Positions 52,809 through 55,639 of a stretch of DNA of 64,000 nt are shown here, piece by piece. Below the pieces are notes generated by a model. That model was not told the DNA's origin, did not search any database, and saw only the letters and a list, made by a program, of their open reading frames with translations. Made by a program: the position numbers and the translations under genes. The DNA is from the human T2T-CHM13v2.0 reference genome, Homo sapiens, in NCBI RefSeq assembly GCF_009914755.1, contig NC_060939.1, one strand, 5' to 3'. Within the stretch, counting starts at the first letter, position 1; every line of letters starts with the position of its first letter.

Positions 52809-52989
52809 AAGCAGATTCCCACTGAGTGGATGGTGAGAGCATGGGTGGATGTTCCACCCCCAGGGTGTATGAACCCACCTGTTATCCACATTCCCATGGC
52901 CAAAACTCACCAAGGGACAGGGGCATCCAGGGTTTGTGGGGCTTCAGGCGCAGGCAGCTTAGGGACTTTCTTTAAGAAAAAGAATACAT

Positions 52990-53310
52990 CCTGGGCATGG
53001 TGGCTCACACCTGTAATTCCAGCGCTTTGGGAGGCCGAGGCAGGTGGATCTCTTGAGGCCAGGAGTTCTAGACCAGCCTGACCAACATGGCGAAACCCTG
53101 TCTCTACTGAAAATACAAAAATTAGCTGGGTGTGGTGGTGCACACCTGTAATCTCAGCTACTTGGGTGGCTGAGGCAGGAGAATCACTTGAACTTTGGGA
53201 GGTGGAGGTTTGCAGTGAGTTGAGATCGTGCCACTGCATTGAAGCCTGGGCAACAGAGTGAGGCTCTGTCTAAAAATAAATAAATAAATAAATAAATAAA
53301 TAAATAAATA
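52990..53310 (+). mobile_element. AluS with (TAAA)n tail; 5' component of composite insertion
   Basis: Full Alu; no TSD copy directly after its tail. Confidence 0.9.
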
Positions 53311-53553
53311 GTCTCAGAGCAAGAGATGCCACTGTCTCAATGATCTCACATGCCTGAAAGGGTGAAGCTATCTATATGTTTGCTGAGACCACTCCTGCTT
53401 TTGGAACTTGGATGGGATTGAAAGGAAGCCTGTATACCTGAGTGGCTTCAGCCTGGGAGACATTTATACAATATGACAGACTAGGCTAATTACTAATGAT
53501 CATGTATGTTCTTTTGATGTAAAGGGTCCACGTTAAAAAACCAAGGGGTGACC

Positions 53554-54626
53554 TGTGGTGTTATGATGTATACATGTATTGGTTTTTGTCCACGGTTCCT
53601 GGCTTGCCGCCCCCAAAGCACTTGTTATAGGCTTAACATTGTGGGCATCAGGCCTCAGGAGCAGGACTCAGGAAGCAGAATCCCTCCGACCTTCTCCTGC
53701 CCTCCCTTCGGCAACCCCAAGCCGGGATGCTAATCTTCCCCTGTTTCTCCTGTTACACGGGTCATAAGACTCTCTCCTCCGAGGGTCCTGCTCTGTGCCC
53801 TGAGGGAAGGAATGGAGATGTCATGAAGCTTCCATAAAAACCCACAAGACCTGGGTTTGGAGAGCTTCCGGACAGCATGTGGCATTCCACATGGAGGTTC
53901 CTGAAGGTGGTGCTCCAGGGAGGGCACAGGCAGCTCTGTGTCCCCATAGCTTGCCCTACGTGTGTCTTTTTTATATTTTTATTTTATTTTATTTTATTTT
54001 TTTGGAGATGGAGTCTTGCTCTGTCACCCAGGCTGGAATGCAGTGGCACGATCTCGGCTCACTGCAACCTCTGCCTCCCAGCTTCAAGCGATTCTCCTGC
54101 TTCAGCTTCCTGAGTAGCTGGGACTACAGGCGCCCGCCACCACGCCCGGCTAATTTTTTGTATTTTAGTAGAGACGGGGTTTCACCGTGTTGCCCAGGCT
54201 GGTCTTGAACACCTGACCCCGTGATCCGCCTGCCTTAGCCTCCCAAAGTGCTGGGATTACAGGCGTGAGCCACAGTGCCCGGCCTCTTTTTTATTTTTTG
54301 AGACAGAGTCTGACTCTATCGCCCAGGCTGGAGTGCAATGGCGCCATCTTGGCTCACTGCAACCTCTACCTCTGAAGTTCAAAAGATTGTCCTGCTCAAC
54401 CTCCTGAGTAGCTGGGATTACGGGCGAGCGCCTGTAACTTTTGTATTTTTAGTAAAGATGGCGTTTCATCATGTTGACCAGGCTGGTCTTGAACTCCTGA
54501 CCTCATAATCCGCCCATCTTGTCCTCCCAAAGTGTTGGGATTGCAGGCGTGAGCCACTGCATCCAGCCTATGTGTCTCTTCATCCTGTATCCTTTGTAAT
54601 ATCCTTTTTAATAAACTGGCAAATGT
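53554..54626 (+). mobile_element. MER21-like LTR (U3-R only, polyadenylated), interrupted by two minus-strand Alus (53968-54284, 54286-54568)
   Basis: TGTGGTGTTATGAT..TCCACGGTTCCTGGCT..GGTCATAAGAC..CCATAAAAACCC..GGAGAGCTTCCGGA..TGTATCCTTTGTAATATCCTTTTTAATAAAC, then an A tail. Confidence 0.75.
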
Positions 54627-55639
54627 AAAAAAGAAAAAAAAAGGAAAAGAACAAAAGAAAAAAATACATAGTTATGAACACAGACTTAGGCATAAAGTGA
54701 ATGTGCTGGAGCTGCTGCTGCCCCCTGCAGGTCCCTCTACCGGGAAAGGTGATTGGAGTTCTGGGGGGTTTTGGAGGGGACCCTTGGGGCAGTGGCTATT
54801 TACTACCTGGTGTGGAAGCATTTTAAGATTTTAATGCTGAATGTGGCTGTACTGACATATGCATGGTAGCTGCACCTCCACGCTGGGTGCTGTGATGAAA
54901 GCGCCCTGCACTCAACCAAGGCACCCCCTGTAAGGGCAGCTCCTCCGTGCTTCCCATGCTGGCTTGTCCTCAGCTGAAGGTAGGCCAGAGGCGCTGTGTG
55001 GGCCGGGTGTGGTGGCTTCAGCCACCGTGGCAGCTGACGGAGATGGAGGCCGCCTGGGATGGGCCTATGGGTTTTTTATACTAGGGGGAGGTAGGTCTGC
55101 AGCAGAATCTCTGAGGAAAAAAAATTTTTTTTCCAGGAAATTAACAGAACAGAACTGTATTGCAAACATGATGAAGGGAGGCAGGAAGCTCTTTGTAAGT
55201 CAGAAAGAACCGGGACTTGGATGTATTAGAAGGGAATCCAGGTAGGCTGCTGTTTCCCAGCCTGCCTAGCAGCTAGTAGGGGGCAGGTGAGAGGAGAGAG
55301 GTAAAGAGAATGAAAGTCCAGCTTAGACTCATTTGATGTTAGAGTTGGAAGAGTCTCACCTCCACGTGGACAAACTGAGGCCCAGAAAGGCAAAGTGGCT
55401 TGCTTCACATCATGTAGCTTCCTATTTTATAGGCTCATTTGGGTTTTATATGTGAGTTCTTCTTTATAAAGTGGTTATGTGGAAGGATTTTTTTTTTTTT
55501 TTTTGAGACTCTGTTACTCAGGCTGGAGTGCAGTGGTGTGATCACAGCTCACTGCAGCCTCGATCTCCAGGGCTCAAGCAATTCTCCCACATCAGCCCCT
55601 GTGAAGGGATTAAAGTAATTAAAAATGGGTACCCTTTGG

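What the first reader, a model, noticed from the sequence alone, without database searches (positions are those of the whole stretch)
52974..54669. Single-TSD composite retro-insertion: Alu + ~240 bp + polyadenylated LTR lacking U5 (Alu 3' transduction or Alu/ERV template-switch chimera)
Seen: a MER45-like element (52918-52989, resuming AGTTATGAACAC..TTAGGCATAAAGTGAAT at 54670) is interrupted by 1.67 kb. The insert is flanked by AAGAAAAAGAATACAT (52974-52989) and AAGAAAAAAATACAT (54655-54669) at a TTT|AAGA L1-endonuclease-type site. Inside are a full Alu with no TSD after its own tail, then 53311-53553 ending in a purine-rich PPT-like AAAAAACCAAGGGG, then a MER21-like LTR. The LTR stops 11 nt after AATAAA (54610-54615) and runs into an A tail, with no U5 or terminal CA. 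Established: L1 can retrotranspose LTR-element mRNAs as processed copies (e.g. HERV-W) and can make template-switch chimeras. Inference: one TPRT event copied either a read-through RNA starting at an Alu and ending at the LTR poly(A) site, or an ERV RNA 3' end followed by a switch onto Alu RNA. Two Alus sit inside the LTR part.
Basis: partly seen in the sequence, partly recalled or inferred. Interest (0 to 1): 0.75.

Follow-up and report, generated by a model that had tools for sequence, protein, structure and literature searches.

The report
Retroviral RNA retrocopy with later Alu
This 1.7-kb insertion is the poly(A)-tailed end of an old endogenous-retrovirus RNA, likely copied into the chromosome by LINE-1, headed by an Alu that probably landed at the same cut site later rather than in the same event; such tailed copies are common in this retroviral family.

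Summary
The anatomy is real. An older repeat is split by a near-identical 16/15-nt duplication enclosing an AluS-type element, 244 nt of ERV internal 3' end with a polypurine tract, and an LTR that stops 11 nt after AATAAA in an A tail, without U5. The spacer is not unique. It is ERV sequence, and 17 of 29 fetched relatives also end in an A tail at the poly(A) site (9 keep U5, 3 unresolved), so the processed-copy part is ordinary for this family. No source locus was found (best relative 72% over 617 nt), which makes Alu transduction unlikely. The single-event reading is weaker than claimed. The Alu looks younger than the ERV part (non-CpG branch 0.068 against 0.127-0.22). The Alu-tail/ERV junction matches the end of the right duplication plus 3 nt of flank in 9 of 10 bases, as an eroded third copy would. 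Best reading: two insertions at one nick (0.65). A true Alu/ERV-RNA chimera stays open (0.22), because transversions alone do not separate the Alu from the internal piece. Primate orthologues would decide. The family-wide tailed copies, outside HERV-W, may be the more interesting lead.

The parts
52918..52989 (+). Left part of an older interspersed repeat that hosts the insertion (DNA-transposon-like; family name untested; by recall closer to Arthur1/MER69 than MER45)
   Evidence: other copies carry the same 19-mer; 10 of 18 resemble the left flank, 3 of 18 the right flank
52974..52989 (+). Left copy of the target-site duplication, at a CTTT|AAGA endonuclease-type site
52990..53271 (+). Near-full-length Alu, S type (no 2-nt deletion; Sz6-like by recalled diagnostics)
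   Evidence: non-CpG branch 0.068
53272..53309 (+). Alu tail turned into A5T(AAAT)8; its last bases may be an eroded third copy of the duplication
   Evidence: (53303-53312 against 54663-54672: 9 of 10)
53310..53553 (+). 3' end of an ERV internal region, 5'-truncated, with polypurine tract at 53535-53548
   Evidence: 39 other scored hits, 71-79%
53554..53964 (+). LTR U3 part (MER21-type by recall)
   Evidence: solo LTRs start at the same TGTGG
53965..54283 (-). Alu inside the LTR, with the 2-nt deletion of younger S subfamilies
54284..54569 (-). Second Alu inside the LTR, in tandem with the first; the pair shares one degenerate flanking duplication
54570..54626 (+). Rest of LTR up to the poly(A) site; AATAAA 54610-54615; no U5
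54627..54654 (+). A-rich tail
54655..54669 (+). Right copy of the target-site duplication; the next three bases (AGT) equal the first three ERV bases at 53310-53312
54670..54705 (+). Host repeat resumes
   Evidence: L062, L064, L075; L061

Best explanation
The insert holds an Alu, the 3' end of an ERV internal region and an LTR cut at its poly(A) site, and it was likely built in steps: LINE-1 probably first copied a polyadenylated ERV RNA into the TTT|AAGA site, and an AluS probably inserted later at the same nick in the left duplication. Step 1 (anatomy shown; L1 as the enzyme inferred from established TPRT hallmarks): reverse transcription primed on the RNA's A tail, ran about 0.7 kb and stopped, and the 5' end joined with a 3-nt microhomology (AGT). 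This gave duplication - ERV 3' end - U3-R - tail - duplication. Step 2 (inferred): an AluS was primed at the same nick and made a third copy of the duplication behind its tail, which was then mostly overwritten as the tail turned into (AAAT)n. Step 3 (inferred): two younger Alus inserted in tandem into the LTR. The element is most likely inert fossil DNA: no annotated gene overlaps it.
For: Age: non-CpG own-branch is 0.127 (95% 0.083-0.182) for the internal piece, 0.20 with U3-R and 0.22 for U3 alone, against 0.068 (0.032-0.107) for the 5' Alu; J-like Alus have median 0.125; bootstrap overlap 0.03 and <0.001. All 16 tailed relatives scored have branches of 0.09-0.19. J-type Alus sit inside tailed copies L006, L009 and L092, so the family was being retrocopied by AluJ times. 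No young source: best hits are 79% (spacer), 75% (LTR) and 72% over 617 nt. Junction: AATAAATAGT against AATACATAGT, with the T spacing in phase; AGT starts 1.6% of internal positions. Same nick reused: 1 of 18 other host-repeat copies (L061) has an Alu at this exact nick with its own duplication. Lost duplications are common: a crude scan called a TSD for only 57 of 86 Alus, and 3 of 13 other microsatellite-tailed Alus had no call.
Against: No intact third duplication: 5 of 16 bases differ from the left copy, and both other AAAT-tailed Alus in the sample (2 of 2) kept theirs. Transversions alone do not separate the internal piece from the Alu (0.027 against 0.022, overlap 0.35); only the LTR-containing set does (0.063, overlap 0.001). 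The LTR is about twice as diverged as its matched set (0.22 against 0.112), which could also mean an already diverged, since-lost source. The junction lies at an A run of the ERV (only 7% of internal positions do), a coincidence under this model. 5'-truncated mRNA retrocopies show less microhomology than truncated L1 (PMC2912911 section 12). Each genome search scored only 40 candidates (of 104, 618, 703 and 1777).
Confidence: 0.65

Rival explanations
1. Single-event chimera: L1 reverse transcriptase copied the ERV RNA 3' end, then switched at the ERV's A run to an Alu RNA tail (or copied a ligated RNA), leaving one duplication around both.
For: Only one clear duplication, flush with the Alu start. 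A full-length sense Alu ahead of a 5'-truncated partner is the layout of the 452 Alu/LINE-1 chimeras, 33% of them AluS (PMC13174262 section 12). The junction sits at an A run that could pair with an Alu tail (AAAGAGTC in 8 of 29 relatives). Transversion dating of the internal piece does not exclude equal age.
Against: The ERV part looks older by non-CpG distance. An AluS-age copy should have a source within roughly 0.14, but the nearest relatives are at 0.196 (internal) and 0.278 (LTR). The model gives no reason for AGT to match the right flank. None of the 6 relatives with a duplication at the 5' junction has an Alu flush there.
Confidence: 0.22
2. The Alu inserted later into the ERV's own A run, and the ERV stretch between the left duplication and the Alu was lost, either at insertion or by recombination between two direct Alus.
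For: This ERV site does take Alus: L035 has a sense Alu of another subfamily there with its own duplication, and L092 has a J-type Alu about 60 nt upstream. It fits the age gap.
Against: It needs a deletion ending exactly at the left duplication, or two Alus plus a recombination, and it leaves the AGT match unexplained. No clear subfamily mosaic in the Alu was noticed (not formally tested).
Confidence: 0.08
3. Alu 3' transduction: an RNA starting at an Alu inside a source ERV read through to the LTR poly(A) site and was retrotransposed whole.
For: Same orientation and one duplication. An Alu-in-ERV arrangement at this site exists (L035).
Against: L035 is not the source: spacer 76.5%, Alu 84.7%, different subfamily. 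L092 has a different Alu at a different place (77%). The junction search found no other spanning locus among 39 other scored hits, and the tail-plus-spacer pattern matched only the window. T4, T4 and T5 runs at 53399, 53512 and 53583 would stop polymerase III (established rule).
Confidence: 0.04

Closest known systems
HERV-W (HERV17/LTR17) processed pseudogenes (PMC5016936, passages seen; PMC5537654, abstract and passages)
   Same: 3' LTR cut to U3-R, poly(A) tail, TT/AAAA-type site, variable-length duplication. Processed copies outnumber proviruses there (135 against 65) as tailed copies outnumber U5-bearing ones here (17 against 9 of 29).
   Different: A different and older ERV family (MER21-type by recall), which PMC5537654's abstract implies is not mobilised this way. 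The window copy is 5'-truncated, so it has no R-U5 start, and it is headed by an Alu.
Alu/LINE-1 chimeric insertions (PMC13174262, sections 10 and 12)
   Same: Full-length sense Alu 5' of a truncated polyadenylated partner, bounded by one duplication at an endonuclease motif.
   Different: The partner is ERV RNA, not L1. Their defining test, joint presence or absence across species, could not be run, and the ages here appear not to match.
Tandem or same-site Alu insertions at an existing L1-endonuclease site (recalled from El-Sawy and Deininger 2005; paper not seen)
   Same: A second TPRT event reuses the A-rich duplication of an earlier one. L061 and the tandem Alu pair inside this LTR are examples in hand.
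   Different: The first occupant is an ERV retrocopy, and the middle duplication is not intact.

Membership tests
L1-made ERV processed pseudogene (HERV-W type anatomy) | 3' LTR ends after R, no U5 | tested here: met
   9 of 29 relatives continue into U5 at this point; the window goes into A's
L1-made ERV processed pseudogene (HERV-W type anatomy) | Poly(A) tail shortly after AATAAA | tested here: met
   AATAAA 54610-54615, tail from 54627
L1-made ERV processed pseudogene (HERV-W type anatomy) | Variable-length TSD at a TT/AAAA-like site | tested here: met
   16/15 nt at CTTT|AAGA, host repeat continuous across it
L1-made ERV processed pseudogene (HERV-W type anatomy) | 5' end either R-U5 or truncated within the internal region | tested here: met
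   truncated 244 nt before the LTR; relatives continue upstream
HERV-W group itself | Sequence belongs to HERV17/LTR17 | not testable with these tools
   no repeat library; by recall the LTR is MER21-type, which PMC5753468 lists separately under HEPSI
MER21 / MER21-int | Match to the Repbase/Dfam consensus | not testable with these tools
   name recalled; 5 stop-free frames of relative L017 gave 0 Pfam hits
Alu-headed TPRT chimera | Full-length sense Alu joined to the 3' partner inside one TSD | tested here: inconclusive
   layout met, but a possible eroded third copy lies at the junction
Alu-headed TPRT chimera | Both parts of the same age | tested here: inconclusive
   not met by non-CpG distance; not excluded by transversions in the internal piece
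Alu-headed TPRT chimera | Both parts present or absent together across species | not testable with these tools
   no other primate genomes held
Alu 3' transduction | Source locus with the same Alu and the same downstream sequence | tested here: not met
   each search scored only its 40 best candidates
MER45 (host repeat) | Match to the MER45 consensus | not testable with these tools
   only shown to be a dispersed repeat continuous across the insert

The most novel reading that the evidence does not exclude
The locus is a true single-event Alu/ERV-RNA chimera made by L1 template switching at the ERV's A run, an ERV counterpart of Alu/LINE-1 chimeras, and it belongs to a second human ERV family besides HERV-W whose internal-bearing copies were mostly spread by L1 as processed RNAs.
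Probability: 0.22. Interest if true: 0.6.

Novelty: new member of a known kind. Interest (0 to 1): 0.33.

Why it matters
As a single locus it matters little: it is a fossil with no annotated gene overlap. It is a useful warning that one visible TSD around an Alu plus a neighbour does not prove a single event. If the chimera reading held, it would extend Alu-headed chimeras from L1 RNA to ERV RNA. The side result may matter more: 17 of 29 sampled relatives are tailed, U5-less copies, and six have a TSD at the truncation point, although a review abstract (PMC5537654) calls HERV-W the sole HERV group specifically mobilised by L1. A second, older family would make the question of which ERV RNAs L1 prefers testable by comparison. 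It would also mean that LTR-based dating and provirus counts for this family mix two mechanisms.

Tried and rejected
Spacer as unique transduced DNA: rejected, it is ERV internal sequence. LTR consensus ending at 54626: rejected. L035 and L092 as source loci: rejected on identity, Alu subfamily and position. RNA editing as a trace of a composite RNA with inverted Alus: no A>G excess in the 5' Alu (3 of 19 non-CpG changes) and no T>C excess in the antisense Alus (0 of 12; 2 of 24). The automatic TSD search over 1.5 kb upstream was mostly noise. The targeted look covered 12 of the tailed relatives and found a junction TSD in 5 (L007, L009, L012, L019, L023; L012 and L019 read by eye). L029 was added. 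For L006, L015, L022, L027 and probably L021 and L028 the 5' end lay at or beyond the DNA held, so it stays open whether they carry Alu-headed junctions. Pfam scan of 5 stop-free frames of L017: 0 hits, so no class assignment from protein. Rfam shows only the SRP- and Alu-derived miRNA matches expected of Alus, all below gathering score. Pavlicek 2002 and Buzdin 2003 are not held, so their lists of ERV families and chimera types were not seen. One Alu (54284-54569) was left out of the J-like set because it has the S-type deletion; S-type Alus with the 2-nt deletion (35 of 70) were left out of the comparison set.

Full report
Observation. A 16-nt and a 15-nt near-identical stretch (52974-52989, 54655-54669) enclose an Alu, an A5T(AAAT)8 tail, 244 nt ending in a purine tract, and an LTR from 53554 that carries two minus-strand Alus and ends 11 nt after AATAAA in an A tail. 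The duplication is A-rich and modest evidence alone (5 ungapped matches with up to 3 mismatches in the window, 1.11 expected). The host repeat supports it: a 19-mer over the left copy has 19 exact genome matches against 0 for the control. Of the 18 other copies, 10 resemble the left flank and 3 the right flank. The names MER45 and MER21 are recalled labels that no call tested; by recall the host looks more like Arthur1/MER69.

What the spacer is. It is the 3' end of an ERV internal region. The search scored 40 of 104 candidates, and the 39 besides the window are 71-79% identical. In the 29 relatives fetched, ERV sequence continues upstream of the window's junction, and LTR sequence matched downstream in all but one (L014). 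Nine of 29 go on into U5, so the LTR does not end at 54626. Seventeen of 29 end, like the window, in an A-rich tail just after the poly(A) signal, and 3 are unresolved. Their 5' ends form a staircase of truncations. Of 12 tailed copies examined at the 5' junction, 5 have a duplication abutting the truncation, and L029 adds a sixth. L004 has R-U5 at its 5' end and U3-R plus tail at its 3' end. These are the features given for HERV-W processed pseudogenes (PMC5016936, passages). The LTR part of the finding is therefore an ordinary product of this family; that L1 made it is inferred from those hallmarks.

Is there a source locus? Transduction predicts a locus with this Alu, the spacer and a full LTR. 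None of the 29 has an Alu flush with the spacer. The best relatives reach 79% (spacer), 75% (LTR) and 72% over 617 nt. A junction search found one other spanning hit among 39; it is an independent J-type Alu about 60 nt upstream with its own duplication (L092). An A-tail-plus-spacer pattern matched only the window. L035 has a sense Alu at exactly the window's junction site, but of another subfamily, with its own duplication, and with spacer identity 76.5%. Three T4-T5 runs lie before the poly(A) site. Transduction is therefore unlikely, with the caveat that each search scored only 40 candidates.

One event or two: age. I estimated each piece's own branch from pairwise distances to its relatives. 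Without CpG-prone columns the internal piece gives 0.127 (0.083-0.182) and the piece with U3-R 0.20, while the 5' Alu gives 0.068 (0.032-0.107) among 35 S-type Alus; 20 J-like Alus have median 0.125. Tree terminal branches agree (0.131, 0.207, 0.063). U3 alone, with gap-adjacent bases masked, gives 0.22 with the nearest relative at 0.278. The 16 tailed relatives scored span 0.09-0.19, and three tailed copies carry J-type Alus inside. Against this, transversions alone give 0.027 for the internal piece and 0.022 for the Alu (overlap 0.35), and only the LTR-containing set separates (0.063). The window LTR is also about twice as diverged as its matched set, which an already diverged and since-lost source could explain. 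The age gap is likely but not proven.

One event or two: junction. The end of the Alu tail plus the first ERV bases reads AATAAATAGT; the end of the right duplication plus the next flank bases reads AATACATAGT. AGT is thus shared by the ERV start and the target, as 5' microhomology of the ERV copy would be. A chimera, whose 5' join is at the Alu start, gives no reason for it, and AGT starts 1.6% of internal positions. The two T's four bases apart in the duplication are in phase with the AAAT array. Reuse of this nick is documented in hand: L061 has an Alu at the same position of the same host repeat (1 of 18). Against: the middle 16-mer differs at 5 positions; 2 of 2 other AAAT-tailed Alus kept their duplication, although 29 of 86 Alus overall had no call; the junction lies at an ERV A run, true of 7% of positions, which suits a template switch; and truncated mRNA retrocopies depend less on microhomology than truncated L1 (PMC2912911 section 12).

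Verdict on mechanism. Two insertions at one nick 0.65; single-event chimera 0.22; later Alu in the ERV's A run with loss of the 5' remainder 0.08; transduction 0.04. These odds are my judgement from the evidence above, not a computed posterior. Alu/LINE-1 chimeras of the same layout are a described class (452 cases, defined by joint presence across species; PMC13174262 sections 10 and 12), and that test is the one that would decide this locus.

Novelty. The locus is a new member of a known kind. For the family-level result, the abstract of PMC5537654 calls HERV-W the sole HERV group specifically mobilised by L1. Four searches (listings seen) showed no paper reporting processed copies of MER21-type elements, and the passages of PMC5753468 that name MER21 only list it. 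Pavlicek 2002, Buzdin 2003 and the Repbase/Dfam entry notes were not seen and may already mention it; no supplements were read, and Table S4 of PMC13174262 covers L1 partners only as far as the main text says. The sample is also small and was chosen by similarity to a tailed copy's internal end.

Noticed in passing
L002-L030 (relatives of window 53310-54626); also L034, L035, L083, L088, L092: 17 of 29 relatives with the internal 3' end are A-tailed and lack U5; six have a TSD at the 5' truncation; five further internal-bearing loci met in other searches are tailed too. This suggests large-scale L1 retrocopying of a non-HERV-W ERV family.
   Followed up: partly
L004:1030-2270: Copy with an R-U5 5' LTR, most of the internal region missing (deleted or spliced), U3-R and a tail: full processed-RNA anatomy.
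   Followed up: partly
L035:2110-2470: An Alu of another subfamily inserted with its own TSD at the same ERV-internal A run as the window junction, so that site is a repeat target.
   Followed up: yes
L061:1500-1880: An Alu inserted at the same nick of the same host repeat, with an intact TSD; L071 has an antisense Alu a few bases further on.
   Followed up: partly
window 53554-53964 and 54284-54569: The LTR (0.22 against a set median of 0.112) and the second internal Alu (0.118 from the Alu majority despite an S-type deletion) are both about twice as diverged as their peers; unexplained.
   Followed up: partly
L021:2105-2880 and L029:880-1010: L021 has two tailed LTR ends facing each other; L029 has a short inverted piece at its poly(A) end.
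   Followed up: no
window 52340-52810: Looks like an MLT1-type solo LTR upstream of the host repeat (label recalled, not tested).
   Followed up: no
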